Assembly (NCBI GenBank): GCA_000092065.1 | Contig: CP000582.1 | Strand: one strand, 5' to 3' | DNA length: 64,000 bases | DNA from: Ostreococcus lucimarinus | Lineage: Eukaryota | Shown here: positions 27,959 through 43,413 of the stretch, piece after piece | How positions within the stretch are numbered: the first letter of the stretch is position 1 | Layout of the letters: every line of letters starts with the position of its first letter | Position numbers and translations under genes: made by a program | The notes under the pieces: generated by a model | What the model saw: the letters and a program-made list of their open reading frames with translations, nothing else | Told to the model about the DNA's origin: nothing | The model's database searches: none

Positions 27959-28272
27959 GCCACCCGAGAATTACCCTCGTTCGCGTCCTTTGCACGATGA
28001 AACACCACACGAGCTAAATACTATCACGCATCGCTGCGTCCTACGCGTCCCTCCCGCGCCGCGTCGCCCCCTCGCCGCCGCCTTCGCCGCGTCGACTCAA
28101 ACGTCCCGCGTCTCTCGCGCCGTCCCATCGCCACCAACCGCACCAACAGCCCCCCCACGACGAGCGCGCTCACCACGCACACCCCCACCAGCGCCTCGCG
28201 CGCGCGCGCCCCCCCCCTCGCGTCGTCTTTCCACCGCCAGTCCTCGAACATGCCCGCACACCGCGCCTCGCA

Positions 28273-29307
28273 ATGGCGTCCGTCGCCCCGCGCGCGCGCG
28301 CGTCGACCGCCTCGCGCGCGCGCGCGCGCGTCGCGTCGTCCGCGTCGGCGTCGTCGACCGCGCGTCGGCGCGCGTCGCGCTCGAAACACGGCGACGCGCG
28401 CGGCGTCGACGTCAACCGACGCGCGGTCGCGGTCGCGCTCGCGGTCGCGCTCGCGACGCGCGCGGCGCCGCGCGCGCGCGCGACGGCGACGACGACGACG
28501 GATGAATTCAACGCGCTCGAGCGACGGGCGAAGCGGGCGTACTACGCGCGCGATTTGAAGCGGGCGCGCGAGGACTTGACAGCCATCATCGCGATGGAGC
28601 CCGAGACGCCCGAGTGGCGCGAGCGCCGCGCGCAGGTGCTCGTCGACATGAAATTGTTCGAAGAAGCCATCGCGGATTACGACGAGGCGGAGCGAATGTA
28701 TCGAGCGATGTACGACGACGCGACGACGACGTACAAGTCGCTCGGGATGCTGAGTAATCGCGCGTTGGCGTACGAAGGGTTGAGTCGCTGGGACGCGGCG
28801 ATCGCGGATTACTCGGAGGCGTTGAAGTACTCGTCGATGATGGGAGCGACGCCGCCGTACGTGCTGAATTCGCGTGGGAATTGTTATAACTCGATCGGGG
28901 AGTACGAGAAGGCGCTGGATGATTACTCGCGCGCGGCGGGCATTTTTCAGCAGTCTCGAAATCTTAGCGGAGCGATCTACGCGCAGAGCAACGCGGCGTT
29001 GATGCTCGCCGAACTCGGCCGAATCGACGAGGCGATAGAGGACATGGAAAAGGTTAAAAGACGAGCCGCCGGGAGCGTTGACATGCGCGCCGCGCTCGCG
29101 GCTCTCTATTGGTCGCGAGGGGAGGAGCAGCGCGCGGAGGATAATTGGAATTGGAGCTGCACGGCGATCAACAGTGGCCAAATGGTCGAAGGTGGTCCAG
29201 TGCTCGACGGCTGCGAGCTTTATCGCGATTACGATTGGCTCGGTCGCATTCGACGTTGGCCCCCGTCAATGGTGCAAAAGTTTAAAAGATTCATTGAGTT
29301 GAGTTGA
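28273..29307 (+). CDS. Tetratricopeptide-repeat protein with organellar-type presequence
   Basis: ATG at 28273. An R/A/S-rich N-terminus carries RRAVAVALAVALA. TPR-like repeats follow (..AIADYDEAERMY.., WDAAIADYSEALKY.., YEKALDDYSRAAGIF.., IDEAIEDMEKV..). Confidence 0.7.
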   Translation: MASVAPRARASTASRARARVASSASASSTARRRASRSKHGDARGVDVNRRAVAVALAVALATRAAPRARATATTTTDEFNALERRAKRAYYARDLKRAREDLTAIIAMEPETPEWRERRAQVLVDMKLFEEAIADYDEAERMYRAMYDDATTTYKSLGMLSNRALAYEGLSRWDAAIADYSEALKYSSMMGATPPYVLNSRGNCYNSIGEYEKALDDYSRAAGIFQQSRNLSGAIYAQSNAALMLAELGRIDEAIEDMEKVKRRAAGSVDMRAALAALYWSRGEEQRAEDNWNWSCTAINSGQMVEGGPVLDGCELYRDYDWLGRIRRWPPSMVQKFKRFIELS

Positions 29308-29341
29308 AAACAATGATTTAGTGATACAATAGTCGTTAGAT

Positions 29342-31963
29342 CTAGTTGAAATACCACAGCGTCGTTCCCTCGATGAGCCCGAGCGTGTCTACGTTTGATT
29401 CCAAGTCGCCGCTATCGCCAGAACCTTTGCGGCGCTTTGCCACGCACACGACGACGGGAAGCCCTCTCGGCGCCTTTGAGAAGTGCACGATAGGCACTGG
29501 CGCTTGGTCGGGTGCTTGCGAATTCGTGTACTGACGTCCCGTTTTTCTGGGATCAATGTCAATCATCGCTTCTACGCGTGCTCTCGCGGCGGGCGAAATT
29601 TCATTCATGAAATTTTTCGCGTCACGCCCTGCGCCCCACACGATGAATTTCTCCCACGACTTCATGGGAAGAATGCGTTCCTCGAACGCTTGCGCGCGAA
29701 CCTGCAACAGCCGACGGCGACTACACCGTGCTGATGCGCTCTGTGGACTCCAGCGATACAACAGCACCGGGTTATGCGGGTAGTCCCCGGCGCGTAAAAG
29801 CGATGGCAAGCCCTTTTTCAAGTTCTGCTCGTAATTTAACGCCAAGTGCCGTTGGAAGAAAATTAAATCTTCCGCCTCGCCCGAACCAGGCGGTGCCTCA
29901 ACAAAACCGCCTACGGTTTCTGCGACCGTTCGCGCCATGCACCACGTCGGCAAGAGTACCGTGCACTCTCGGAATTGTTCGAGGTGAAGCTCGTTTTGCG
30001 TCATCATGTTCGCCCAGGCTTCGTAATGCTCCGTTGAACCGCTTGGATACCGTTTCCAGCACCCTCCAACGATGGCCGTCCGATTTTCCGCGGCGAGTGG
30101 CACTTGTAGCTCGAGTCGCTGTGGCATCATGACGTCGTCAGAGTCCAGGAAGACTAAAATGTCTCCGTGACTCTGCTCGATGCAACGATTTCGACAGAAC
30201 CCGATACCAAAGTTGGGCGCGTCTTCCGCGACAAACTTCGAGCTCTCTGGCCACCTGCTTCCGTTCACCACAACGGCGATGCCCACTCGGGTAAACGCCT
30301 CGCGCCAGATTTTGATGATGTCTGGCGACCCATCCGTACTGCTGTCGTCGAAGATGCTCACCTCGATTGGACCTCGGTACGTTTGAGCGCATATAGAGCT
30401 CAAAGTCTCATCTAACCAACGAGATGCGTTATACACGGGAACAATGATACTGACGCTCGGCAAAGTAGTATCCACCGGAGGTCGAACGGGTTGCTCCTTG
30501 GGCGACGTCGACACTAGGAAATCGAGCACGCGCTTGAGCTTCGGCTTGGCGGATACGACTTCTTTGAGGATGGGAATCCCAACCTGCTCATACGATTCTT
30601 GCTTCACTCGAGCCATGCCATTCGCCAAAAGGCGTACTGACGAAGTCAAGTTACTCGTTCCACTATGAATCATCCACGGGTGTAACAACGCCACGGTCCC
30701 AGCCTTCCCGACAAGTTGCTCGATGACGCCATCGATGTCGTCTCGTCGAATCGCATTTTCAGCTTCGTGCGCATCTAGCTCGTACGAAAGCGGGAGACGT
30801 CCTTCGGTCGACAATTCGCTCACTAGATCAATAGCCCATGAGTTCAAATCTTGGTGAATGATGCCGCCCTTTGAGCGCAAATGCGACGCGATCCACTTGT
30901 GTGAACCCTTGATGAACGCCGTACCGCCGCCGCCCGGGACGCAGTCGGATAAAAATACCAAAATAATCACGCCTTGGTACGGATGTCCGTCCGGTGTGCG
31001 CTGCGCATCCGTGCTGAATCCCGCGCCAATGTCTAAGTGCCAGCCTCGGTTGAGCATACGCCTTCGATTGACCGGATGCCACGACCTGGCCGCCTCGAGC
31101 TCCTCCGCCTTTGGCTCTGGAGATCCCTCCCTGACTTGTCTGTCTACGATATTTGCCGACCTTTCGTCTAAAAGCATCATCGCCCGCCCTCGCACTTGTT
31201 TTTTCGTGCACGAAGGGCGTACTCTCTGCATCAACTGCGTGATGTACTGCCACTTCTCCCCGTGCTCCGTAACAGCCGCCAGAAGCGCGGCGTCGTGCTC
31301 GGGCGCCCATGCGCTTTCATAATGCTCCTCACACTGCTTCGCCGTCCACGTCAACTCACTCGTGCTCATCATCTTCGCGATGGCATCCCAATTGTGACCG
31401 CCCTCCTTCAACTTTCTCACGTTCCCGCTGTCGCACTCTGTCCATCTCGCAGGCGCCGGCGCGCACGCCCCGCTCTCGTCGCTCACTTTCCTTCGCTTCT
31501 CGCTCTGTTCCGCCCTCGCCGCCCTCGCTTTGGCTTCCTCCGCCACGAGCATCGCTTGTTCACTATCCTTTTCCGGAAACGTCACCGGGCAGTACCAATG
31601 CCGCACGTCGCACGCGCGTCGCCGTTCGTCCACCGCGTTCAGTTCTATGTCCCACGCCGCGCGCCCGAGCACTTCGTCCAGCGCTTTCGCGAGCTCGGGC
31701 GAGTTCCTCAGCGCGTCCCACGGCGCGCCGTCGCTCGGGGCGACGACTTCGATCACCCTTCGCGCGTTCCCGCGCGGCCACGTCGAGGGGTCGTCCAAAG
31801 CGAGCGGCGTCGACGCATTTCTTTCGCGACCGCTCTCGGCGGTGACGCACGGGTCGGCGAGTTCGCGACGCAACTGCGCGCGTATACCGTCGACGACGGA
31901 CGCGGAGACGGCGTCGGGGATGAGAACGATGCCGTCGGCGATGAATCGCTCGCGGAGCGACAT
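29342..31963 (-). CDS. Fusion protein: PhyH-like 2OG/Fe(II) dioxygenase with inserted SANT/Myb repeats + C-terminal GT2 glycosyltransferase of the B3GNTL1 type
   Basis: The track start (32176) is TTG; the real ATG at 31963 gives MSLRERFIADGIVLIPDAV. There are two Myb/SANT-like repeats (..HNWDAIAKMM..WTAKQCEEHY; WAPEHDAALLAAVTEHGEKWQYITQLM...KKQVRGR). The oxygenase core has GWHLDIG (HxD), GGGGTAFIKGSH and LLHPWMIHSGTSN. The GT2 half reads VSIIVPVYNASRWLDETL..IFDDSSTDGS..LVFLDSDDVMMPQRLELQ..LLPTW..AEDLIFF..LLYRWSP..VWGAGRDAK..IVHFSKA..PVVVCV, matching human B3GNTL1 blocks recalled from memory. Confidence 0.85.
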   Translation of the reverse strand: MSLRERFIADGIVLIPDAVSASVVDGIRAQLRRELADPCVTAESGRERNASTPLALDDPSTWPRGNARRVIEVVAPSDGAPWDALRNSPELAKALDEVLGRAAWDIELNAVDERRRACDVRHWYCPVTFPEKDSEQAMLVAEEAKARAARAEQSEKRRKVSDESGACAPAPARWTECDSGNVRKLKEGGHNWDAIAKMMSTSELTWTAKQCEEHYESAWAPEHDAALLAAVTEHGEKWQYITQLMQRVRPSCTKKQVRGRAMMLLDERSANIVDRQVREGSPEPKAEELEAARSWHPVNRRRMLNRGWHLDIGAGFSTDAQRTPDGHPYQGVIILVFLSDCVPGGGGTAFIKGSHKWIASHLRSKGGIIHQDLNSWAIDLVSELSTEGRLPLSYELDAHEAENAIRRDDIDGVIEQLVGKAGTVALLHPWMIHSGTSNLTSSVRLLANGMARVKQESYEQVGIPILKEVVSAKPKLKRVLDFLVSTSPKEQPVRPPVDTTLPSVSIIVPVYNASRWLDETLSSICAQTYRGPIEVSIFDDSSTDGSPDIIKIWREAFTRVGIAVVVNGSRWPESSKFVAEDAPNFGIGFCRNRCIEQSHGDILVFLDSDDVMMPQRLELQVPLAAENRTAIVGGCWKRYPSGSTEHYEAWANMMTQNELHLEQFRECTVLLPTWCMARTVAETVGGFVEAPPGSGEAEDLIFFQRHLALNYEQNLKKGLPSLLRAGDYPHNPVLLYRWSPQSASARCSRRRLLQVRAQAFEERILPMKSWEKFIVWGAGRDAKNFMNEISPAARARVEAMIDIDPRKTGRQYTNSQAPDQAPVPIVHFSKAPRGLPVVVCVAKRRKGSGDSGDLESNVDTLGLIEGTTLWYFN

Positions 31964-32045
31964 GGCCGCGACGGGCGCGGCGCGCGCTGCGGGACGAAGT
32001 CGAAATTGAAATTGCCAAACCTTTGCTGCAACAAAAAGTGCACAC

Positions 32046-32081
32046 GACCGGGACGGCGACCGGGACGGCGACCGGGACGGC
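32046..32081. repeat. Three perfect tandem 12-mers (GACCGGGACGGC) in the 5' leader/promoter of the fusion gene
   Basis: Hand-indexed copies at 32046..32057, 32058..32069 and 32070..32081. They lie 83-118 nt upstream of the minus-strand ATG at 31963. Confidence 0.9.
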
Positions 32082-32189
32082 GACGAGAACGAAGAATCGA
32101 CCGAGGCGCGCGATCGGACGTGTCGTGACGTCGTGAAGTCGTGATTGAACGACGATGAAAGAATGTGATGGTACAACGCGAAGTGGAGC

Positions 32190-33305
32190 TCACACTTCGG
32201 ATCGGTCGTCGGCGTTCGCGGCGGCGGCTAGGAGGGCGTCGGATCGCTTGGCCAAACGCGTGGCCAGCGGCGCGTCCATGAAGAGCTGTGTGATGTGACA
32301 CACGATGCATGGGATTGCTATCAGACCGCCTGAGCCAAAGACATCTTCGGGGAGGTAAGATATGATGGTCATGGCCACGGGGAGGGTCTTTTGGCTGGAC
32401 ATCATCACGCACGCCACGCGTTCGGGGCCGGAGAGGCCGAGCGCGTGCGTGGCGGCGTAATTGATGGCTAGGAATACGACGTGAACCAGGACGGCGGCGA
32501 AAAGCACGGCGAATATCGTGCCTACGTTTGTGTCGATGAGCTCTTTGGCGCTCTTGGAGATGGACATCCAAACGACGATGATGAGACACGAATTATTTGT
32601 CAACGTGAGCTCCGCTTTGCGCGCGTTCGCAAACGCCGCCACTGCTGGAATCATCTCTCGCGCAACCTTCCCGAGCACGATCGGAAGCAGAATCGTGAAC
32701 AACAACTTAACCAAAAGTTTCACCGCCTGCGTCGACATGTCGTTCGCCGCCCCATTCACCGCGCTCGCCATCTCTCTCGGCCCGCTCGCCACGACGGCGT
32801 TGAAGTAAAACGGCACGGTAAACACCCCGATCAGATTCGTGCTCACCGTCAGCATCAGCGCCAGCGCGACGTTCCCTTTCGCGTTTCGCACGAGCGTCAC
32901 ACCACTCGTCAGCGTCGTCGGCACGCAGCAAAACAGCGCTAATCCGTATCGAAATTCTATCGGTTTGTACGGCACGCGTACTAGGATAAACCCGAGCAGC
33001 GGCGTCAAGCCTAATATGGCCACCCATCCGTACCCGAGCGCGCCTCGTCCAGCCTTGAGCGCTTGCGTGATTTCCTCCGTCTTCAGCGTGGCGCCGGATA
33101 TGACGAAGATGATCACCACGCACACCGTTTGGATGACGCTCCAGCCGCTCACTGACACCTTGGCGAGCGCCTTGCCGGCGGCCGGGACGGAGAGCCCGAA
33201 TAAAAGCGCGAGGCAGAAGCCGCAGACGAGAAAATTGTCGAGCAAGAAGGCGCGCGCGCGCGCGTGCATCGGTTTGGGCTCAGGCTTCACGACATCAGCG
33301 AGCAT
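32190..33305 (-). CDS. SBF-like / SLC10A7 (sodium-bile acid cotransporter 7 family) membrane protein
   Basis: ATG at 33305; 371 aa; about 10 hydrophobic segments. Family-typical blocks are FLLDNFLVCGFCLALLFGL, IIFVISGATLKTEEI, FCCVPTTLTSGVTLV and MSSQKTLPVAMTII. Confidence 0.82.
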   Translation of the reverse strand: MLADVVKPEPKPMHARARAFLLDNFLVCGFCLALLFGLSVPAAGKALAKVSVSGWSVIQTVCVVIIFVISGATLKTEEITQALKAGRGALGYGWVAILGLTPLLGFILVRVPYKPIEFRYGLALFCCVPTTLTSGVTLVRNAKGNVALALMLTVSTNLIGVFTVPFYFNAVVASGPREMASAVNGAANDMSTQAVKLLVKLLFTILLPIVLGKVAREMIPAVAAFANARKAELTLTNNSCLIIVVWMSISKSAKELIDTNVGTIFAVLFAAVLVHVVFLAINYAATHALGLSGPERVACVMMSSQKTLPVAMTIISYLPEDVFGSGGLIAIPCIVCHITQLFMDAPLATRLAKRSDALLAAAANADDRSEV

Positions 33306-36918: not shown

Positions 36919-37740
36919 CTACAAACGACGACCACGGCGACCACCCTTTCTACGAGTAGAATCCGTCGGCGTCGGCGTGACGTCTTCGATTCGGCCAATC
37001 TTCAACCCGGAGCGCGACAACGCGCGAAGCGCGCTTTGCCCGCCCGGACCCGGCGACTTCGTCTTATTACCCCCGGTCGCGCGCATCTTAATGTGCAGCG
37101 CCGTGATACCGAGCTCTTTGCATCGCGCGGCGACGTCTTGCGCCGCGAGCATCGCCGCATACGGCGAGGATTCATCGCGATCAGCCTTCACCTTCATCCC
37201 GCCGGTGCATCGGCTCAGGGTTTCCTTGCCCGACAAATCCGTCACGTGCTGCGTCGTCGAACGCGCGCGTCGGTCAGTCTCTCGCAATCGTCGTTCGGCG
37301 CGTCGCACGGCGCGCGCGAAAACGAAAACGAATGTCATCGCGCACGGCGTCGACGTCCTTCATCGCCGCGTCGCGCGCGCGTCGTCATCGCCATCGTGCG
37401 CGCGACGATCGCACTAGGGCTTTCATCGCGCCATCGCCATCGCCATCGTCATCGCGCGTCCCTCGCGCGCGTCGCGTCGCATCGCTCGTTCGAGCACGCA
37501 CCACGAAAGTATCGTTAAACGACGCGTAGATGTGCGCGACGCCGAAGACGAGCTCGCCCTCGCGCGCGTTGGGACCGACGTACGTAGCCTGCGCGCGGCG
37601 TCGATCGCGGTCGGGTCAGTCGGGCGTTCGCGTCGTCGTCGTCGCGCGCGCGCGCTCGGTCGCGCGCGCTCGGTCGCGCGCGCTCGACGCGATAGGCGCG
37701 CGCGTCGCGGCGTCGCGGCGTCGGTCGAGTCGCGCACCAT
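36919..37740 (-). CDS. RPS14: Cytosolic 40S ribosomal protein S14 (uS11), three exons: join(36919..37248,37502..37588,37738..37740)
   Basis: The last exon is [109 protein letters not shown]. The middle exon, from my own translation, is [29 protein letters not shown]. The first coding exon appears to be the ATG alone (ATG|GTGCGCG). The product is 139 aa, comparable to yeast Rps14 (137 aa as I recall). Confidence 0.85.
37249..37501 (-). other. RPS14 intron 2 (253 nt)
   Basis: The donor follows GTG| as GTGCGTG at 37501. ACTGAC at 37278..37273 lies 24 nt before the acceptor CGCAG ending at 37249. Phase 0. It restores FNDTFV|HVTDLSG. Confidence 0.9.
37589..37737 (-). other. RPS14 intron 1 (149 nt), immediately after the start codon
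   Basis: Donor GTGCGCG at 37737, directly after ATG 37740..37738. ACTGAC at 37620..37615 lies 26 nt before the acceptor GCGCAG ending at 37589. It contains a GCGCGCGCTCGGTC repeat. Confidence 0.65.
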
Positions 37741-37933
37741 GTCGCGGTGCGGCGCGTCGTCGAAAGACGGCGCGCGCGCGCCGCGCGCCCGCGGTCTCGC
37801 GGCGGGCGCGCGGATGGACGGTGTCGTCGATGTTGGCGTTTTCGGGCGTACTCTACGTGCGTTACTGAATACGCATACGGAGCGGTCGGTCGCCGCGGGG
37901 CCCGGCCGTTACACCGACGCGCGCGGCGTCGCG

Positions 37934-39712
37934 ATGACGGCGCGGCGCGAGCGCGCGCGCGCGCGGCGACGGCGCCGCGTCGCCCTCATCGCGTGCGCGT
38001 GCGCGCTCGCGGTGATCTGCGCGCGCGCGGTGACGCCGCGACGCGCGCGCGAGCGGCGCGCGGACGCGCGAACGCCGCGAGAACTCACGCTCGCGTCGCA
38101 CGGTGCGTTTCTGGCGCTGGACGTCGAGTCGAAGGCGGCGCGCGTGATACATCGCGGCCGGGGGGTGTATTACGGCACGTTCGAGGACGGATCGTCGTCG
38201 TCGGACGCGGTGTGGGTGGCGTCGAGGCCGGATAACGCGAAGACGCGGACGCGGACGGCGACGCGCGGGGACGCGTTGCTCAGAATAGACGCGAAGCGGG
38301 GGGAGATTTTAGAGGAAAGGGCGATCGATGCGGCGTTCACGCACGACGTCGTGCGACGAGGTGACTCGGTGTTCGTCGCCGACACTGGGAACGGGCGGAT
38401 TTTGGAGTTGGAGTATCCGTCGATGAGGACGCTTCGGGCGGTGGAGTTGTCGGTGAAGGCGCACGTGAATACGCTCGCGCCGGCGGACGCGAGCGAGTAC
38501 GGCGAGCACGCGGTGTGGGCGGTGCTTCATAATTTAGGTCCGAGCGAGGTGGCGTTGATCGACTTGGAAACTGGGCGCGAGTTGCGACCGAGGTTGACCA
38601 GAGTGGGCACGAAGTCGCACGGGTTGGTCATATACGAAGATCGATTCATCATGCTGAACAGTGGAGAGGGGCAATTGATTTCCGTGGACCCGTCGGGTGT
38701 CGAAGATTACGAGATTTTATGGACCGATGATTCGCGGACGTTCATGAAAGGGTTGTGCGTGATCGATGACGTGGCGTTTTTCGGCGTTTCGGCGTTCGGA
38801 AGAAGAGAAGACCGAGGCGATCCAAACAAGTCGAGCGACGTGGTGGCTTTCGATCTCGTTCGTAAGCGCGAGCTCTGGCGACAGACCGTGATGACGCACG
38901 GATTGCTCAACGTCATCGCCGCGCCGCAAATAGAGTCGAGCACTTGGTCGCACGCACATTGGAATGCAAACTCGCCGTCGTTGTACGCCGAATGGATTCC
39001 TCTGGCGGCGAAGCAAACGAACAATTGTGAAGCGACCGATCGGAATTCCTTGCTGTTGACGTACGACGACGTCGATGTACATCTGCTTCGTGATTACATT
39101 CAAGGCCTCCCTCGCGACGTGTTCAAAGAGTCTGGCAAAAACGGAAACGCTTTGTTGGGTGGGAGAGACGGCAACATGCAAAAGTTCAAGCCAAACGTCG
39201 ATGGCATGCTCTTGTTTTTCTCAGATCGAGGTGGCGAACACGTTTTTGAGTTTCCATTTTGGAAACGTCTCGAGCCGTACGTGCAACCTGTGCTGATTGA
39301 TTTGTTCACCGATCAACTCGGCGTCTCGGATCCGTTACGACACGTGATACGGCTACAGCTGGCGGTGATGAATCCTGGTTCTGAAATTTTGCCACACGTG
39401 GATACGGGCGACTGGGCGAGAAGACACCATCGATTTCACGTTCCAATCATAGTCCCGCAAAACGCTGGAGCGGTGGAATTCGTCATGATGCCAGAATCCG
39501 GTCAGGAAATCGCCGTTCCGCTCATCGAAGGTCGTCCATTTGAGATAAACAACGCGGTGACGCATCGAGTACGGAACAGCGCCTCGTCTTGGCGCATCCA
39601 CTTACTCGTCGACTTTAGCGAGCAACCGACGGCGAAGAGGCACGTGCTCAAGCCTGGGGACGTTTGTGACTACGCCAAAATGGGCAGCGGTCGGTGTGTG
39701 GCTGTCACTTAG
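37934..39712 (+). CDS. Membrane-anchored protein with C-terminal aspartyl/asparaginyl beta-hydroxylase-like (cupin, 2OG oxygenase) domain
   Basis: The C-terminus reads ILPHVDTGDWARRHHRFHVPIIVPQNAGAVEFVMMP..IAVPLIEGRPFEINNAVTHRVRNSASSWRIHLLVDF, the AspH-family pattern. The middle part has NHL/beta-propeller-like strings (VFVADTGNGRILELEYP). My best start is ATG 37934 ([30 protein letters not shown], a signal anchor). Alternative ATGs lie at 37814 and 37739. The track start 37532 is GTG. Confidence 0.7.
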   Translation: MTARRERARARRRRRVALIACACALAVICARAVTPRRARERRADARTPRELTLASHGAFLALDVESKAARVIHRGRGVYYGTFEDGSSSSDAVWVASRPDNAKTRTRTATRGDALLRIDAKRGEILEERAIDAAFTHDVVRRGDSVFVADTGNGRILELEYPSMRTLRAVELSVKAHVNTLAPADASEYGEHAVWAVLHNLGPSEVALIDLETGRELRPRLTRVGTKSHGLVIYEDRFIMLNSGEGQLISVDPSGVEDYEILWTDDSRTFMKGLCVIDDVAFFGVSAFGRREDRGDPNKSSDVVAFDLVRKRELWRQTVMTHGLLNVIAAPQIESSTWSHAHWNANSPSLYAEWIPLAAKQTNNCEATDRNSLLLTYDDVDVHLLRDYIQGLPRDVFKESGKNGNALLGGRDGNMQKFKPNVDGMLLFFSDRGGEHVFEFPFWKRLEPYVQPVLIDLFTDQLGVSDPLRHVIRLQLAVMNPGSEILPHVDTGDWARRHHRFHVPIIVPQNAGAVEFVMMPESGQEIAVPLIEGRPFEINNAVTHRVRNSASSWRIHLLVDFSEQPTAKRHVLKPGDVCDYAKMGSGRCVAVT

Positions 39713-39783: not shown

Positions 39784-42700
39784 TCACATGATTTTGATCG
39801 CTCGCTCAAATCCAGCCGGCTTCCCCTGACGGCTAGCCGGCCTTCGCGGACCTCTAACTTCGCGCTCGATCCCCAGCGTCGATTCGCAAAAGCCCTCTTT
39901 GGCGATGCGAACCAATTTACTCGATATAACCAACTCGTCGTCGTCCAAGATTTCATACCGCGGCGGGTGGCCGATGTAGAACTTCCATTTTGCGAAGTCC
40001 TCATCCGTCGCTTCGAGCCTCGTCTTGATCCGAGCCTTCACTTCCCCGAGCGTCTCACCTTCACACGTGCGAAGTAACATCGGTTCATCGTAGGCATAGA
40101 ACTGGTTAGGATTGGACAAGTCTTTGGAAATGTTGTACACACGCAAGAGTCTGTCTTCCTCTGACTCGTCATCGGGAACTTCCTCCGCACGAAGCGTCCA
40201 ATATTGGTCGTTGATATCTGCGATATCCTTTTCCTCCTCGAAAACTTTGTAGATTTGCGAGTAGAAAAGTTCAAGCAGACGTAATTTGCGACCGCCGACT
40301 CGAGTACCGAGCCTAGATCTGACCTCTTCGAGGACATCCTTCACCGCTGCGCTCTTCGACAGACGCAGTTGGAATTCTTCAACGAGCTTTGTGTTCAGTC
40401 CATGGAAGAAAACTTTTAGCGTCTTCAATTCCTGGAGTTCGGGCAGCGGCATGTCTAAGACTTCGTAATAGAGCACGTCGCTTTGCTGGTTTTCCAGCAT
40501 TTTTATCAAAGTATCCGCGCCTCTAAATTGGAAGCTTGCACTCTTTGGACCGTTCGTGTACACGTGATGCGCGGTGAAGCGCAATCGAAGAGGATCGTCC
40601 AAACCGATCGCCGAAGCCAAAACATCAGCGACTTGATCGTAACTCATCATTTTCGTCAACTCCAGAGTCACTTTGTCCACCTTAGGGGCCTCCAGCTCTC
40701 TGAAGTGAACGATTTGATGATTGTGTCTGAAGTCCGCATATTGAACCACGTTGGGGAACTTTAGTGAATCTTCCATGTCTTCAGTGATTTCTGGTTGAAT
40801 AAGCAAGATATCACCGTTACCGAGCTGCAACGTCTTGCTACCGTCATCGGGGTCGCTCAACGGATATGTTTTCACTTGTTTGTCCGATAATTGATCAATT
40901 TGAATCTTACTTTCGCGAACGAACGCAATTTCCTCAAACATGAGCGTTGACGCGGTACTGGCAAACCCTGCCATGGATTTGATCTTCGGCATGTAGGTAC
41001 TGAGCGTCTCCTCGGGACTCGCGTAAAGCGTGCCACAGTAACTCAACCGCGCCTCATGCGGATTGTAAAGCTTGACGTGCAACCAAATGTCTCTTTCTGG
41101 GTCACTGTTCGCGAACGCATCATCGTCAAGCTCTTCCAGGTAGAGTCTGAATTCGCCTGATGAAGCATGCTGTGAGTTAGGCACCGTGTATTTCAGCCGT
41201 GTTTTTTCAACCGTCCAGGTCGGTGGGGTATTTGCGTGGTCTGGAAGCGCGGTGGCTGGCCGAGATGTTTTGTTGCGTCGTGGCGAGTAAGTCCAGTACC
41301 GCTGCCTCTCAGCTGGTATTCCGAGCTTCTCGGAAACGAGCTCCCTAAACTTTGTAAATGTCGACTTTTTATGCAGTCGGAACCTTTGCGCGCTCTCAAA
41401 ATTGCCCAGATCAAAAAACTTCTCCGAAGCGATCTGCCGCTCTAAATCTTGCCTGGTCAAAACCTTGATGATGGTGTACAGATGCGCCTCCTTCTTTTCC
41501 TGCGCCTCTTTCTCCTTTGCCTTCTGCTCCTCAGCGAAGCGGGCCTGGAGGTATTCCGTGAGATGAGACTTATTGGCGACGCACATGATTTGATCCATGT
41601 CATCCTCTCGAATGTACACGAGCATGTAGGCGCTACTCACTTTTTGGAACCGCAAGTTCGGCGCCACGCGGACGTTTGTCGAGTCATCGTCTGCATCCAT
41701 ATCGCTATCGACCGCGGCTGCGCCGCCGCTTCCGTACTGTTCCACCACCGACTTTTCTGCGGTTTCTTTCGTCACGTGTTCGTCATCAAACTTGAACCAC
41801 TGCGCATCTTCCGCCTGCAAATTGGGCTTGACAAACGCGTAATAATGTCCACCATTTATCCCCCCGCTGTGTACTAAGACGCTATGAAGCTTATACTTGT
41901 TGCGAACACTCTTGTCGGACTCGGGAACGAGGTACTTACGATCACCCACGTCGAGATCGAGCTCTTCGGGGAACTCATATCTATCATGGATCTTCACCAT
42001 GGTGTCTCGTTGGTAATCGTACTCAAAACGCTTCAGCTGAATCTGCAACACGGGAGGAAAGTCGTGGAACAGCGTGCCTTTGCGAGCGTCTTGCAATCCG
42101 TGTCCCTCGGCGCGATACTTGTTCTCGCCATCAAGTTTTTCAATCTCAGTGTAACGATCAAAGGACGCATAAATATCTTTGCATCCCTTGACGTCTAACT
42201 GAAGATCGAGAAACTCCTCCTTGCGTTCGCTCTTGTAATCAACGTTGATGCACTCGATGAAGTTCGTCGTGTGCCCTTCGAAGAGCTTCTGAATCGTGCC
42301 CTCGACGCACGTTTGTTTCATGGCCTCTTCAAGCTTATCCTGAAGTACACGGTTGAGTTCCTGTACGTCGTGTTGCATGAAGGAATCGTAAGAGTCCCAT
42401 CCAAACGATCGCGTCAAATCCTCCGTGCTCACGTCGCCTTCTTTGGCGTACTGAAGACAGTAGAACACCGATTGTAACGCTAATGGCATCGATGTGTGCG
42501 CCTCTTCCGTTTCGTTCGTAGGCATGTGATAGACCGCGCGACGAAAGGAGGGAATGTGATAGAGCGTCTGCAAGAGCGAGTTCATGTAACACGTCGCCCC
42601 TTGATTCTTCAGACCGATCAGCCCTGTCTCTTTGCGCGAGTCGTATTCGCTATAAAACGCACTCTGCATCGGTCGGTCGACTTCGTGCTCCTCAATCGGC

Positions 42701-43413
42701 GTCACATGCACTCGGAAATTCACACAGCCTTCGGCGTCAACGTAGCCCTTTTCAAAAACGTCTTCGCGCGTGATGAACGACGCGAACCCCCAATCCGCTT
42801 CGCGTCTGTCGAACGTGTGCGACGTTTCCTTCGATTCTACCACCGACGCATCCGTCGGATGAAGCAGCTGCAATTCGAACTTCGCGTGCCTTCTCCACTC
42901 TCTACTCATGTCGTCCTCGATTCGGCGCGGCTTTGTCGCCCCCGTGTCCAAGAACAAGCTCACCTGCGCCGGCGTCTCCGATTTCGAGTTCAAATTACTC
43001 CCGAACGGATACATCGCCAACCGAAAGAGTGTATCTCCGCACTCAAACGTTTGACTCACCACCTTCGCGTCTCGTTTCTTCCATCGCGAGAACTCGGCGC
43101 GCCACGAGAACGTCGTCGGCTCCGCCGTCGAGAACGCCAACTCGCTATCTTCCGAACCGCTCGACATCGATCGATCGTCGTCTTCCGCGTCCGACGCGTT
43201 GCCGTCGTCGGCATCTAACGACCGCATCTCCACTGCTCGCGCGGGCGTCGTTCGTCCGGACGCGTCGTCGTCAGTCGTCGAGGCGGGTGCGGATTCCAGA
43301 TCGATTGCCGTCGCGATTCTCCGTCGGTTTCGTCGCGCGCGAAGCGCGCGCGCCCGATCGAGCGCCCGCGAGCGATGCGCACCGTCTTGCGAGGCGATAT
43401 CATCGCCTGACAT
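39784..43413 (-). CDS. USP7: Ubiquitin carboxyl-terminal hydrolase 7 (USP7/HAUSP, plant UBP12/13-like) with MATH domain
   Basis: ATG at 43413; 1209 aa. MATH region: FSWRAEFSRW..FECGDTLFRLAMYPFG. USP Cys box: GLKNQGATCYMNSLLQTLYH. His box: YKLHSVLVHSGGINGGHYYAFVKP. A long USP7-type UBL-repeat C-terminus follows. Confidence 0.95.
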   Translation of the reverse strand: MSGDDIASQDGAHRSRALDRARALRARRNRRRIATAIDLESAPASTTDDDASGRTTPARAVEMRSLDADDGNASDAEDDDRSMSSGSEDSELAFSTAEPTTFSWRAEFSRWKKRDAKVVSQTFECGDTLFRLAMYPFGSNLNSKSETPAQVSLFLDTGATKPRRIEDDMSREWRRHAKFELQLLHPTDASVVESKETSHTFDRREADWGFASFITREDVFEKGYVDAEGCVNFRVHVTPIEEHEVDRPMQSAFYSEYDSRKETGLIGLKNQGATCYMNSLLQTLYHIPSFRRAVYHMPTNETEEAHTSMPLALQSVFYCLQYAKEGDVSTEDLTRSFGWDSYDSFMQHDVQELNRVLQDKLEEAMKQTCVEGTIQKLFEGHTTNFIECINVDYKSERKEEFLDLQLDVKGCKDIYASFDRYTEIEKLDGENKYRAEGHGLQDARKGTLFHDFPPVLQIQLKRFEYDYQRDTMVKIHDRYEFPEELDLDVGDRKYLVPESDKSVRNKYKLHSVLVHSGGINGGHYYAFVKPNLQAEDAQWFKFDDEHVTKETAEKSVVEQYGSGGAAAVDSDMDADDDSTNVRVAPNLRFQKVSSAYMLVYIREDDMDQIMCVANKSHLTEYLQARFAEEQKAKEKEAQEKKEAHLYTIIKVLTRQDLERQIASEKFFDLGNFESAQRFRLHKKSTFTKFRELVSEKLGIPAERQRYWTYSPRRNKTSRPATALPDHANTPPTWTVEKTRLKYTVPNSQHASSGEFRLYLEELDDDAFANSDPERDIWLHVKLYNPHEARLSYCGTLYASPEETLSTYMPKIKSMAGFASTASTLMFEEIAFVRESKIQIDQLSDKQVKTYPLSDPDDGSKTLQLGNGDILLIQPEITEDMEDSLKFPNVVQYADFRHNHQIVHFRELEAPKVDKVTLELTKMMSYDQVADVLASAIGLDDPLRLRFTAHHVYTNGPKSASFQFRGADTLIKMLENQQSDVLYYEVLDMPLPELQELKTLKVFFHGLNTKLVEEFQLRLSKSAAVKDVLEEVRSRLGTRVGGRKLRLLELFYSQIYKVFEEEKDIADINDQYWTLRAEEVPDDESEEDRLLRVYNISKDLSNPNQFYAYDEPMLLRTCEGETLGEVKARIKTRLEATDEDFAKWKFYIGHPPRYEILDDDELVISSKLVRIAKEGFCESTLGIEREVRGPRRPASRQGKPAGFERAIKIM

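What the first reader, a model, noticed from the sequence alone, without database searches (positions are those of the whole stretch)
29342..31963. Rosetta-stone fusion: PhyH-type 2OG dioxygenase + SANT/Myb repeats + B3GNTL1-type GT2 glycosyltransferase in one cytosolic/nuclear protein
One uninterrupted 873-codon ORF has no signal peptide or TM segment and combines three parts. The first is a PhyH-like oxygenase core (GWHLDIG HxD motif, distal HPWMIHSG). The second is two Myb/SANT-like repeats inserted into it. The third is a C-terminal GT2 domain whose blocks (FLDSDDVMMPQR, LPTW, EDLIFF, LLYRW.P, VWGAGRDAK, IVHFSKA..VVVCV) match human B3GNTL1 as I recall it; I believe the physiological role of B3GNTL1 is still poorly defined. 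Hydroxylase-plus-glycosyltransferase pairings are known to act sequentially on proteins, as in Skp1 prolyl hydroxylation and glycosylation in protists, and in collagen LH3. The fusion therefore predicts coupled hydroxylation-glycosylation of a nuclear or chromatin-associated substrate, with SANT as a targeting module. It also offers a functional hint for the B3GNTL1 family.
Basis: partly seen in the sequence, partly recalled or inferred. Interest (0 to 1): 0.6.

Follow-up and report, generated by a model that had tools for sequence, protein, structure and literature searches.

The report
Oxygenase fused to queuosine-tRNA glycosyltransferase homologue
A marine picoalga encodes one protein that joins an iron/2-oxoglutarate oxygenase, two Myb repeats and a full-length relative of the animal enzyme that puts galactose on the tRNA base queuosine, which predicts an undescribed oxidised sugar-queuosine tRNA modification in algae.

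Summary
A single intron-free 873-codon ORF lies on the minus strand at 29342-31963. It encodes a PhyH-type Fe(II)/2OG dioxygenase split by two Myb repeats, followed by a GT2 glycosyltransferase. All catalytic residues are invariant in 13 aligned homologues.

The C-terminal 384 aa are collinear with vertebrate B3GNTL1 (36% identity, E 3e-70), including the family-specific basic C-terminal subdomain.

Since 2023 B3GNTL1 has been known as QTGAL, the UDP-galactose:queuosine-34 tRNA-Tyr galactosyltransferase. The best-supported substrate is therefore a hypermodified tRNA base, not a chromatin protein.

The fusion is not an annotation artefact:
- It recurs in Mamiellophyceae (O. tauri XP_022840794.1).
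- It occurs in a haptophyte transcript and in other protists, with or without the Myb insert.
- All fused oxygenase domains form one clade, next to a large group of uncharacterised standalone oxygenases.
- The AlphaFold model is confident (pLDDT 86.6, pTM 0.72) and has an ordered inter-domain linker.

I read it as a bifunctional tRNA-queuosine glycosylating and oxidising enzyme. The substrate and the order of reactions are inferred, not shown. It is a new variant of a known kind, of moderate-to-high interest.

The parts
29342..31963 (-). Complete CDS: 873 codons plus stop, no introns. The start ATG at 31961-31963 agrees with the N-termini of the orthologues.
   Evidence: An identical 873-aa protein is called on a JGI metagenome contig with the same neighbours.
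31565..31963 (-). N-terminal part of the PhyH-type oxygenase (aa 1-133). It carries the invariant WP.G..RRV.E and RHWYCP..FPE motifs.
   Evidence: Alignments A1 and A2. AF2 pLDDT is mostly 85-98. The local 'left' HMM is found in both fused and standalone relatives.
31451..31564 (-). Flexible linker 1 (aa 134-171), with a KRRK motif at aa 156-159 that could be a nuclear localisation signal.
   Evidence: pLDDT <50 for aa 134-172. KRRK found. The NLS role is inference only.
31313..31450 (-). Myb/SANT-like repeat 1 (aa 172-217), three helices, acidic (pI about 5).
   Evidence: Pfam Myb hits in 2 stretches. Helices H176-187, H192-199 and H208-213. pI.
31166..31312 (-). Myb/SANT-like repeat 2 (aa 218-266), three helices, basic (pI about 9).
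   Evidence: Best Pfam Myb stretch is aa 218-263. Helices H221-234, H238-248 and H254-271. Foldseek hit to the T. vaginalis Myb3 DNA-binding domain. pI.
31088..31165 (-). Flexible linker 2 (aa 267-292), acidic.
   Evidence: pLDDT <50 for aa 267-289. Length is variable among homologues.
30554..31087 (-). Catalytic core of the Fe(II)/2OG oxygenase (aa 293-470). It contains PVNRRR, WH309xD311, GGGGTAF, SH355, H428PW, H433 and R444 (distal His +11, the spacing recalled for human PHYH).
   Evidence: These residues are invariant in A1 and 88-100% conserved in 85 representatives. Foldseek matches GriE, proline hydroxylase H11, EctD, KanJ, SnoK/N, HygX and PHYH. Profile search.
31031..31039 (-). Codons for H309-L-D311, the HxD iron ligands.
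30632..30667 (-). Codons from H433 (distal iron ligand) to R444 (predicted ligand of the 2OG C5-carboxylate).
   Evidence: H433 and R444 are 100% conserved in 85 representatives.
30464..30553 (-). Inter-domain linker (aa 471-500). It is short and predicted to be ordered in this protein. In relatives it is 30-136 aa and always in frame.
   Evidence: pLDDT 84-97. Length variation.
29744..30463 (-). GT-A (GT2) catalytic domain of QTGAL/B3GNTL1 type (aa 501-740), acidic.
   Evidence: Pfam PF00535 at 85 bits. Collinear with vertebrate QTGAL. Foldseek matches TarS, TarP, heparosan synthase, AvpGT and RmlT.
30134..30145 (-). Codons for D607-S-D609-D610, the DxD metal/nucleotide-sugar motif.
   Evidence: Invariant in A1 and in A3, which includes animal QTGAL.
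29867..29872 (-). Codons for E698-D699, the conserved 'ED' motif and candidate catalytic base of inverting GT2 enzymes.
   Evidence: Invariant in A1 and A3. The role as base is inferred from general GT2 knowledge.
29345..29743 (-). QTGAL-family C-terminal alpha/beta subdomain (aa 741-873; WGAGRD...D.D..K...Y...P..HF...P..VCV...EG..WYF). It is basic (pI 9.9, net +7) and is a candidate tRNA-binding module.
   Evidence: Aligned to the last residue with animal QTGAL. Net charge is zero to positive across the family, pI 7.1-10.9. No significant Pfam or PDB sequence match. The tRNA-binding role is inferred.

Best explanation
The gene encodes a soluble, bifunctional enzyme that modifies a hypermodified nucleic-acid base.

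The C-terminal half is a QTGAL-family inverting GT2 glycosyltransferase. By homology, it transfers a hexose from a UDP-sugar to a hydroxyl of the cyclopentenediol ring of queuosine at position 34 of a GUN-anticodon tRNA. Its basic C-terminal subdomain is proposed to hold the tRNA.

The N-terminal half is an active PhyH-type Fe(II)/2-oxoglutarate oxygenase packed against the GT. It performs a coupled oxidative step on the same nucleoside. It either hydroxylates the base or ring so as to create or alter the acceptor, or it tailors the newly attached sugar, as the PhyH-family enzymes KanJ, HygX and SnoK/SnoN do on glycosides.

The Myb pair is a flexibly tethered accessory arm that probably adds nucleic-acid affinity or nuclear (pre-tRNA) targeting.

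Shown here: the architecture, intact active sites, family membership of each part, and conservation and monophyly of the fusion. Inferred: the substrate (tRNA queuosine), the sugar, the order of the two reactions, and the role of Myb.
For: (1) The C-terminal 384 aa are collinear with vertebrate QTGAL/B3GNTL1, E about 1e-55 over 96-100% of the query, and 36% identity with E 3e-70 against frog QTGAL. This includes the family-specific C-terminal subdomain and the invariant DxD and ED motifs.

(2) QTGAL is the queuosine-tRNA galactosyltransferase (PMC11755703; 10.64898/2026.06.28.735034; PMC12313893).

(3) That C-terminal subdomain has zero to positive net charge throughout the family (pI 7.1-10.9), while the GT-A domain is acidic, as expected for a polyanion-binding module.

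(4) The oxygenase has H309xD311, H433 and R444 (+11) invariant, plus a conserved Arg cluster (R68, R69, R121, R300-302, R322) that suits an anionic substrate.

(5) Its structural neighbours are PhyH-family enzymes acting on small moieties, several of them on sugars of glycosides: KanJ, HygX, SnoK/N.

(6) The fusion is conserved in 16 clusters at 35-100% identity and in further lineages (P0219, P0225, P0227, P0234, P0237, P0247, P0252). All fused oxygenase domains form one clade and all fused GT domains fall in one protist clade.

(7) The full-length AF2 model has pLDDT 86.6 and pTM 0.72, with an ordered inter-domain linker, which suggests a fixed two-active-site unit.

(8) The eukaryotic queuine-insertion enzymes QTRT1/QTRT2 and QNG1 are described as ubiquitous, with green-algal orthologues (PMC12301720).

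(9) Nearest GT structures include enzymes that glycosylate poly(ribitol-phosphate) (TarS, TarP, RmlT), and AvpGT, which was crystallised in complex with the nucleoside Ara-A.
Against: - No biochemical or nucleoside data exist for any protist member.
- In the NJ tree the fused GT domains sit in a protist clade separate from the animal QTGAL clade, so strict orthology, and hence the same substrate, is not established.
- C. elegans has a QTGAL gene, yet galQ was not detected there (PMC12313893), so family members may have other substrates.
- I know of no PhyH-family enzyme that acts on a nucleic acid; none of the structural neighbours does. The known nucleic-acid 2OG oxygenases are AlkB, TET/JBP and JmjC (TYW5).
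- I could not verify that this alga has TGT or queuosine.
- The oxygenase assignment rests on modest scores: Pfam 38.5 bits, profile-to-PDB E 1e-3, Foldseek E 1e-4. The motif conservation is strong, however.
- pTM is reported without a PAE map, so the domain packing is only suggestive.
Confidence: 0.45

Rival explanations
1. One reading: the protein sequentially hydroxylates and glycosylates a nuclear or chromatin-associated protein, with the SANT/Myb repeats targeting it. This would be analogous to Skp1 (PhyA + Gnt1/PgtA) or collagen LH3.
For: Hydroxylase-GT coupling on proteins is well established (general knowledge). The protein is soluble, with no TM or signal peptide. It has Myb/SANT repeats and a KRRK motif. 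One distant relative, P0225, carries ankyrin repeats and, by eye only, what looks like a second P4H-like oxygenase region at its N-terminus, which hints at protein-protein contexts.
Against: The oxygenase is PhyH-type. All of its structural neighbours act on free small molecules or sugar moieties, none on proteins. The GT is a full-length QTGAL homologue with the tRNA enzyme's C-terminal domain. It does not match the GT60/GT77 or LH3-type GTs as I recall their family assignments. The Myb insert is absent from fused relatives P0252 and P0237, so it cannot define the substrate.
Confidence: 0.13
2. A DNA base-hypermodification enzyme working like the base J pathway: the oxygenase hydroxylates a DNA base, the GT glycosylates it, and Myb supplies sequence-specific DNA binding.
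For: The three modules (2OG oxygenase, DNA-binding-type domain, GT-A glycosyltransferase) copy the logic of JBP1/2 + JGT in one chain (general knowledge). The Myb pair resembles an R2R3 DNA-binding domain (T. vaginalis Myb3 hit). The conserved Arg cluster and the basic C-terminal domain fit any nucleic acid.
Against: The oxygenase is not TET/JBP-type (PhyH only). The GT's closest characterised relative acts on tRNA, not DNA. Myb is dispensable in some fused relatives, and repeat 1 is acidic. I know of no report of glycosylated DNA bases in Mamiellales, and none surfaced in the literature searches.
Confidence: 0.1
3. A small-molecule pathway enzyme: it hydroxylates and glycosylates a free metabolite (for example free queuine or queuosine, another nucleoside, an amino acid or a lipid head group). 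Myb would be a regulatory or moonlighting module.
For: Every characterised structural neighbour of the oxygenase acts on small molecules: GriE, proline hydroxylase, EctD, KanJ, PHYH. One of the nearest GT structures, AvpGT, was crystallised in complex with the free nucleoside Ara-A. Many relatives of the oxygenase are standalone 340-450 aa enzymes.
Against: The QTGAL-specific basic C-terminal subdomain is retained. A small-molecule GT would not obviously need it. Myb repeats and the Arg cluster are also unexplained by this model.
Confidence: 0.17
4. A gene-model or assembly artefact: two or three adjacent genes are read through as one ORF, or the oxygenase half is an inactive relic.
For: There are no RNA data for this exact organism. 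Long ORFs arise easily in high-GC DNA (many spurious overlapping ORFs).
Against: The same continuous ORF occurs in at least 16 clusters down to 35% identity, with a linker of variable length that stays in frame. O. tauri RefSeq models it as one 876-aa protein. MMETSP transcripts from Pavlovales sp. CCMP2436 span the oxygenase-GT junction. The linker is predicted to be ordered. All catalytic residues of both halves are invariant.
Confidence: 0.02

Closest known systems
Vertebrate QTGAL (formerly B3GNTL1), UDP-galactose:queuosine-34 tRNA-Tyr beta-galactosyltransferase
   Same: The whole C-terminal half (aa about 490-873) is collinear with it at 33-37% identity. It has the same GT2 GT-A domain, with the same DxD and ED motifs, and the same family-specific C-terminal subdomain, aligned to the last residue. 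Both are soluble proteins without a secretory signal.
   Different: Animal QTGAL is a standalone protein of about 330-410 aa. Here it is fused to a roughly 500-aa oxygenase+Myb module. The algal domain belongs to a protist clade distinct from the animal clade. The sugar donor, target tRNA and even the acceptor base are untested.
PhyH-family Fe(II)/2OG oxygenases (PF05721): PHYH, EctD, GriE, proline hydroxylases, KanJ, HygX, SnoK/SnoN
   Same: The double-stranded beta-helix fold, the HxD...H triad and the Arg 11 residues after the distal His. Pfam scores above the gathering threshold and the best structural matches are in this family.
   Different: It is very divergent in sequence (best PDB profile E 1e-3). 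It has a 160-aa Myb-containing insertion between the N-terminal part and the core, an invariant Arg cluster, and a fusion to a GT. It belongs to a large uncharacterised eukaryote-type subfamily (776 hits at E<=1e-3, 79 at E<=1e-30).
Base J synthesis in kinetoplastids (JBP1/JBP2 thymidine hydroxylases + JGT glucosyltransferase)
   Same: The logic is the same: a 2OG oxygenase, a nucleic-acid-binding module and a GT-A glycosyltransferase acting in sequence on a nucleic-acid base.
   Different: The oxygenase family differs (TET/JBP versus PhyH). Base J uses separate polypeptides and targets DNA. This is an analogy only, drawn from general knowledge, not homology.
Skp1 hydroxyproline glycosylation (PhyA, Gnt1, PgtA) and collagen LH3
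   Same: Cytoplasmic (Skp1) or single-chain (LH3) coupling of a 2OG hydroxylase with glycosyltransferase activity.
   Different: From recall, those systems use P4H- or lysyl-hydroxylase-type oxygenases and unrelated GT families, with protein substrates. Only the oxygenase family of the present protein was tested here, and it is PhyH-type.
Ostreococcus tauri XP_022840794.1 / CEG01105.1 (UniProt A0A090N4Q2), 'Glycosyl transferase, family 2'; also OUS42177.1, 'Myb-like domain-containing protein'
   Same: It is the orthologue: 876 aa, a member of the cluster whose representative (P0003) is 74% identical to the window protein, with identical domain order.
   Different: It carries only automatic names. 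I found no functional study or description of the fusion.

Membership tests
QTGAL / B3GNTL1 family | GT2 GT-A catalytic domain with DxD and ED motifs | tested here: met
   PF00535 at 85.2 bits. D607/D609/D610 and E698/D699 are invariant, including in animal QTGAL.
QTGAL / B3GNTL1 family | End-to-end collinearity with vertebrate QTGAL, including the family-specific C-terminal subdomain of about 130 aa | tested here: met
   96-100% query coverage at E about 1e-55. 36% identity, E 3e-70, aligned to the last residue. A3 alignment. The subdomain has no other Pfam or PDB match.
QTGAL / B3GNTL1 family | Orthology with the characterised animal enzymes (same clade) | tested here: inconclusive
   The NJ tree puts all fused proteins in a protist clade, with the animal QTGALs in a separate clade and a third diatom-like clade. 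There are no support values and no outgroup.
QTGAL / B3GNTL1 family | Transfers galactose from UDP-Gal to Q34 of tRNA-Tyr | not testable with these tools
   Needs an enzyme assay or tRNA nucleoside LC-MS.
QTGAL / B3GNTL1 family | The host has queuosine in its tRNA (QTRT1/QTRT2 present) | not tested
   The host genome cannot be searched with these tools. PMC12301720 calls QTRT1/QTRT2/QNG1 'ubiquitous', with green-algal orthologues. There are no tRNA genes in the window.
PhyH-type Fe(II)/2OG dioxygenases (PF05721) | Profile match above the curated threshold | tested here: met
   38.5 bits against a cut-off of 22. Relatives score 29-47 bits.
PhyH-type Fe(II)/2OG dioxygenases (PF05721) | HxD...H iron triad and a 2OG-binding Arg about 11 residues after the distal His | tested here: met
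   H309, D311, H433 and R444 are invariant in 13 fused proteins and 97-100% conserved in 85 representatives.
PhyH-type Fe(II)/2OG dioxygenases (PF05721) | Double-stranded beta-helix fold closest to PhyH-family structures | tested here: met
   AF2 model with pLDDT 78.9 and 86.6. Foldseek top hits are GriE, proline hydroxylase H11, EctD, KanJ, SnoK/N, HygX and PHYH, at E 1e-4 to 2e-3. TM-scores are low because of the insert.
PhyH-type Fe(II)/2OG dioxygenases (PF05721) | 2OG-dependent oxidation of a substrate | not testable with these tools
   Needs a succinate-release or O2-consumption assay.
Myb/SANT domain proteins | Tandem three-helix repeats matching the Myb profile | tested here: met
   PF00249 at 31.9 bits (40.9 bits when isolated), 2 stretches, cut-off 24.4. 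Six helices in two sets of three. Foldseek hit to the Myb3 DNA-binding domain.
Myb/SANT domain proteins | Sequence-specific DNA binding (Myb) or histone-tail binding (SANT) | not testable with these tools
   Repeat 1 is acidic (pI about 5, SANT-like) and repeat 2 is basic (pI about 9, Myb-like). This does not decide between the two.
Skp1-type or LH3-type protein hydroxylation-glycosylation systems | Prolyl- or lysyl-hydroxylase-type (P4H/PLOD) oxygenase domain | tested here: not met
   Only PhyH is detected. The structural neighbours are small-molecule PhyH enzymes.
Base J-type DNA hydroxylation-glycosylation systems | TET/JBP-type oxygenase domain | tested here: not met
   There is no TET_JBP match in Pfam at E<=1. 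The fold matches are PhyH family.

The most novel reading that the evidence does not exclude
Marine green algae (Mamiellophyceae), at least one haptophyte and other protists make a so-far undescribed hypermodified tRNA nucleoside. It would be a queuosine derivative that is both glycosylated and oxidised (hydroxylated, or with an oxidatively tailored sugar), installed by this single bifunctional enzyme. By extension, the large family of standalone PhyH-like oxygenases found here (79 representatives at E<1e-30) would be tRNA or queuosine oxygenases. That would make them the first PhyH-type oxygenases acting on RNA.
Probability: 0.3. Interest if true: 0.8.

Novelty: new variant of a known kind. 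Interest (0 to 1): 0.62.

Why it matters
Glycosylated queuosines (galQ, manQ) are treated in the literature as a vertebrate or animal feature, and their writer enzymes were identified only in 2023.

A conserved fusion of a QTGAL homologue to an intact 2OG oxygenase in globally abundant picophytoplankton leads to three points:
- Queuosine glycosylation, or a related base glycosylation, may be far more widespread among eukaryotes than assumed.
- It predicts a specific new chemistry, oxidation coupled to glycosylation on a tRNA wobble base. This can be tested directly by tRNA LC-MS and gene knockout in the genetically tractable O. tauri.
- It gives a first functional lead for a large, unnamed eukaryotic PhyH-like oxygenase family.

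Because queuine is a bacteria-derived micronutrient and 2OG oxygenases depend on O2, iron and 2OG, such an enzyme could link translation in picoalgae to microbial interactions and to iron and oxygen status.

Tried and rejected
1. Word-indexed homologue searches with each half did not list the fused proteins P0001-P0014, although these must match. Counts from those lists are therefore incomplete. The exhaustive profile search was needed to see the true size of the oxygenase family.

I used the contiguous catalytic core instead (A5).

3. The AFDB50 fold library, which would have given organism names for relatives, was not available.

4. I looked for transcript evidence in a gene-only Logan contig (L002). 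It has no poly(A) tail, so it is inconclusive. MMETSP transcripts from a haptophyte gave junction-spanning evidence instead.

5. I tested whether the standalone halves are neighbours in other organisms. They are not, on the contigs available (L003, L004, L005).

6. I looked for a functional link in the gene neighbourhood. The neighbours are unrelated housekeeping genes (DNA polymerase delta, kinases, COG3, LHC, TPR, SBF-like transporter, papain-type protease, USP7, PNPase, Cdc37). There are no tRNA genes in the window.

7. PHROGs gave only weak generic glycosyltransferase hits. NCBIfam hits are all far below their cut-offs.

8. Sequence searches with the C-terminal subdomain alone gave nothing significant: CoA_binding E 0.05 and a PRTase-like protein E 0.057.

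9. Literature searches linking QTGAL or B3GNTL1 to algae or dioxygenases, or describing this fusion, found nothing relevant. The original Zhao et al. 2023 paper and Zallot et al. 2014 are not held.

10. Cluster look-ups for names of standalone oxygenase relatives returned only 'hypothetical protein'.

Full report
**Observation.** The window is GC-rich (about 0.50-0.70), gene-dense nuclear DNA from a picoalga. The feature is a minus-strand ORF. One search lists 29342..32176, and the first ATG gives 873 codons plus a stop at 29342-31963. This start fits the N-termini of the orthologues, and the stop of the upstream gene is at 32190.

Pfam scores all three parts above their curated cut-offs: PhyH 38.5 bits (cut-off 22), Myb_DNA-binding 31.9 bits in two stretches (cut-off 24.4; 40.9 bits when the insert is scanned alone), and Glycos_transf_2 85.2 bits (cut-off 23.3). 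There is no hydrophobic segment of TM quality.

**Whose gene it is, and whether the fusion is real.** An identical protein sits on a JGI metagenome contig with the same neighbours: an SBF-like transporter upstream and a TPR protein convergent downstream. The closest named relative is Ostreococcus tauri XP_022840794.1/CEG01105.1, 876 aa, 'Glycosyl transferase, family 2'. A second strain's copy is named 'Myb-like domain-containing protein'. Both belong to the cluster of P0003, which is 74% identical to the window protein.

Sixteen clusters at 35-100% identity share the architecture. In a 13-sequence alignment the inter-domain linker varies from 30 to 136 residues but always stays in frame.

MMETSP transcripts P0028 and P0216 match the NCBI gene model of Pavlovales sp. 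CCMP2436 block for block. They span the distal-His part of the oxygenase, the linker, the GT domain and the C-terminal subdomain. A fused mRNA therefore exists in a haptophyte. I found no RNA evidence for this exact organism. A gene-only Logan contig had no poly(A) tail.

**The glycosyltransferase half.** The C-terminal 384 aa, searched alone, hit standalone protist proteins at 45-58% identity. They also hit vertebrate proteins named B3GNTL1 or 'queuosine-tRNA galactosyltransferase' at 33-37% identity over 96-100% of the query, E about 1e-55. Pairwise against a frog QTGAL the alignment runs from the first beta-strand to the last residue (36% identity, E 3e-70).

The alignment with animal and protist members keeps three things: the DxD motif (D607, D609, D610), the ED pair (E698, D699), and a family-specific C-terminal alpha/beta subdomain (WGAGRD...D.D..K...P..HF...P..VCV...EG..WYF). 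That subdomain has no significant Pfam or PDB sequence match. Its net charge is zero to positive across the family (pI 7.1-10.9, and 8.8-10.9 in all but three animal members), while the GT-A domain is acidic. This suits a polyanion-binding module.

The literature in hand states that B3GNTL1 is now QTGAL. It transfers galactose from UDP-galactose to the homoallylic hydroxyl of queuosine-34 of tRNA-Tyr, and it can act on pre-tRNA (PMC11755703; bioRxiv 10.64898/2026.06.28.735034; PMC12313893).

**The oxygenase half.** The PhyH domain is split into aa 1-133 and aa 293-470, with the Myb pair inserted between them. H309-x-D311, H433 and R444 are invariant in the fused proteins and 97-100% conserved in 85 family representatives. 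R444 lies 11 residues after the distal His, which is the spacing I recall for human PHYH (H264, R275). A cluster of arginines is also conserved (R68, R69, R121, R300-302, R322).

By sequence the domain is only remotely related to solved structures (best profile E 1e-3). An AlphaFold model of aa 1-472 (pLDDT 78.9) matches PhyH-family enzymes: GriE, proline hydroxylase H11, EctD, KanJ, SnoK/SnoN, HygX, PrhA and PHYH (E 1e-4 to 2e-3). All of these act on small molecules, and several (KanJ, HygX, SnoK/N) act on sugar moieties of glycosides. None acts on proteins or nucleic acids.

**The Myb insert.** The model shows two sets of three helices (aa 176-213 and 221-271), flanked by disordered linkers at aa 134-172 and 267-289. 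The insert matches the Trichomonas Myb3 DNA-binding domain. Repeat 1 is acidic and repeat 2 is basic.

The insert is not universal. Fused relatives P0252 (719 aa) and P0237 (887 aa) have no detectable Myb. P0252 has essentially no insert at this position, whereas P0237 keeps an insert of about 135 residues there that does not match the Myb profile. Standalone relatives carry a different insert of about 50-80 aa. Myb is therefore an accessory arm, not the defining module.

**Family context.** An exhaustive profile search with the catalytic core found 776 representatives at E<=1e-3 and 79 at E<=1e-30. Domain HMMs that I built locally show about 70 standalone 'N-part + core' proteins of 340-450 aa. 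They also show fused proteins in further lineages (P0219, P0225, P0227, P0234, P0237, P0247, P0252, P0025) and other combinations: oxygenase + pirin (P0264), LRR + oxygenase + Myb (P0350), and ankyrin + oxygenase + Myb + GT (P0225).

In an NJ tree of the core, all GT-fused proteins form one clade next to the standalone proteins. In an NJ tree of the GT part, all fused proteins fall in one protist clade that also holds some standalone proteins (for example P0020 and P0065 from Guillardia). This clade is distinct from the animal QTGAL clade and from a large diatom-like clade. These trees have no support values. They suggest one old fusion and leave strict orthology with animal QTGAL open.

On the contigs available, the standalone halves are not neighbours.

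**Whole-protein model.** With a 37-sequence alignment that mixes fused and standalone homologues, the 873-aa model reaches pLDDT 86.6 and pTM 0.72. The inter-domain linker (aa 471-500) scores pLDDT 84-97, and only the Myb-flanking linkers are disordered. This suggests that the two catalytic domains form a fixed unit with Myb on flexible tethers. No PAE map is available, so this is only suggestive.

Against the PDB, the GT part matches inverting GT2 enzymes. These include TarS, TarP and RmlT, which glycosylate poly(ribitol-phosphate), and AvpGT, which was crystallised with the nucleoside Ara-A.

**Interpretation.** The best-supported reading (confidence about 0.45) is a bifunctional enzyme acting on a hypermodified tRNA base. 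The QTGAL-type half glycosylates queuosine-34. The oxygenase half carries out a coupled oxidation on the same nucleoside, either hydroxylation of the base or ring, or tailoring of the attached sugar. The Myb arm adds nucleic-acid affinity or nuclear targeting.

Shown here: the architecture, the intact active sites, family membership, and the conservation and monophyly of the fusion. Inferred: the substrate, the sugar, the reaction order and the role of Myb.

Supporting context from the literature: QTRT1, QTRT2 and QNG1 are described as ubiquitous, with green-algal orthologues (PMC12301720).

Caveats:
- C. elegans has a QTGAL gene, but galQ was not detected there (PMC12313893).
- I know of no PhyH-type enzyme that acts on RNA.
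- I could not check this alga for TGT.

**Novelty.** The O. tauri orthologue is in public databases under automatic names only. I found no paper that describes the fusion or links QTGAL to algae or to a dioxygenase. I class it as a new variant of a known kind: a QTGAL-family enzyme with a fused PhyH oxygenase and a Myb insert.

It matters for three reasons. It predicts an undescribed oxidised glycosyl-queuosine in abundant marine phytoplankton. It extends queuosine glycosylation beyond animals. And it gives a first lead for a large unnamed oxygenase family. All of this can be tested by tRNA LC-MS and knockout in O. tauri.

Noticed in passing
window 32045-32084: A perfect 12-bp tandem repeat (CGACCGGGACGG, 3.3 copies) lies in the 227-bp gap between the start codon of the gene and the stop of the upstream gene. 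It is in frame with the ORF's upstream extension, where it would read SPSRSPSRSPSRS. It could be a promoter or 5'-UTR element, or a polymorphic microsatellite.
   Followed up: no
window 37532-39709 (+): A 726-aa ORF has a C-terminal Asp/Arg beta-hydroxylase domain (PF05118, 29.4 bits). It is a second 2OG-type oxygenase about 5.5 kb from the fusion gene, and the rest of the protein has no Pfam match.
   Followed up: no
P0225 (1444 aa), P0264 (820 aa), P0350 (740 aa), relatives: The same oxygenase subfamily occurs in other combinations: ankyrin repeats + oxygenase + Myb + QTGAL-like GT (P0225, whose N-terminus also looks by eye like a P4H-type oxygenase), oxygenase + pirin (P0264), and leucine-rich repeats + oxygenase + Myb (P0350).
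   Followed up: partly
P0041 (NCBI, Pavlovales sp. CCMP2436) versus P0216 (MMETSP transcript): The 279-aa NCBI gene model is identical to the transcript in blocks, but it skips internal segments and lacks the oxygenase part. It appears to be a mis-spliced or truncated model of a fused gene.
   Followed up: partly
window 29307-29342: The fusion gene and the convergent TPR-protein gene (28273-29307, +) end only about 35 bp apart, so their 3' UTRs and terminators must overlap. This is typical of the compact Mamiellales genome.
   Followed up: no
window 40001-42000: GC drops to 0.50 locally, against about 0.6-0.7 elsewhere. The dip lies inside the USP7-like gene (39787-43413, -).
   Followed up: no
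window 28024-29181 (-) and many others: Long antisense and overlapping ORFs of 100-385 aa, rich in Arg, Ala and Ser, cover real genes on the opposite strand. They are a by-product of the high GC content and are not genes.
   Followed up: no
(tool behaviour): Searches with each half of the protein did not return the fused proteins P0001-P0014 that the full-length query had found. The word-indexed search is therefore not exhaustive, even for close relatives.
   Followed up: partly
P0026 and P0139 (MMETSP): A standalone QTGAL-like transcript (P0026) and partial oxygenase+Myb transcripts (the P0139 cluster) have similar transcript-number to gene-number ratios (about 3.14 and 3.16). They may come from the same transcriptome, which would make this a possible case of the two halves being encoded separately in one organism.
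   Followed up: no
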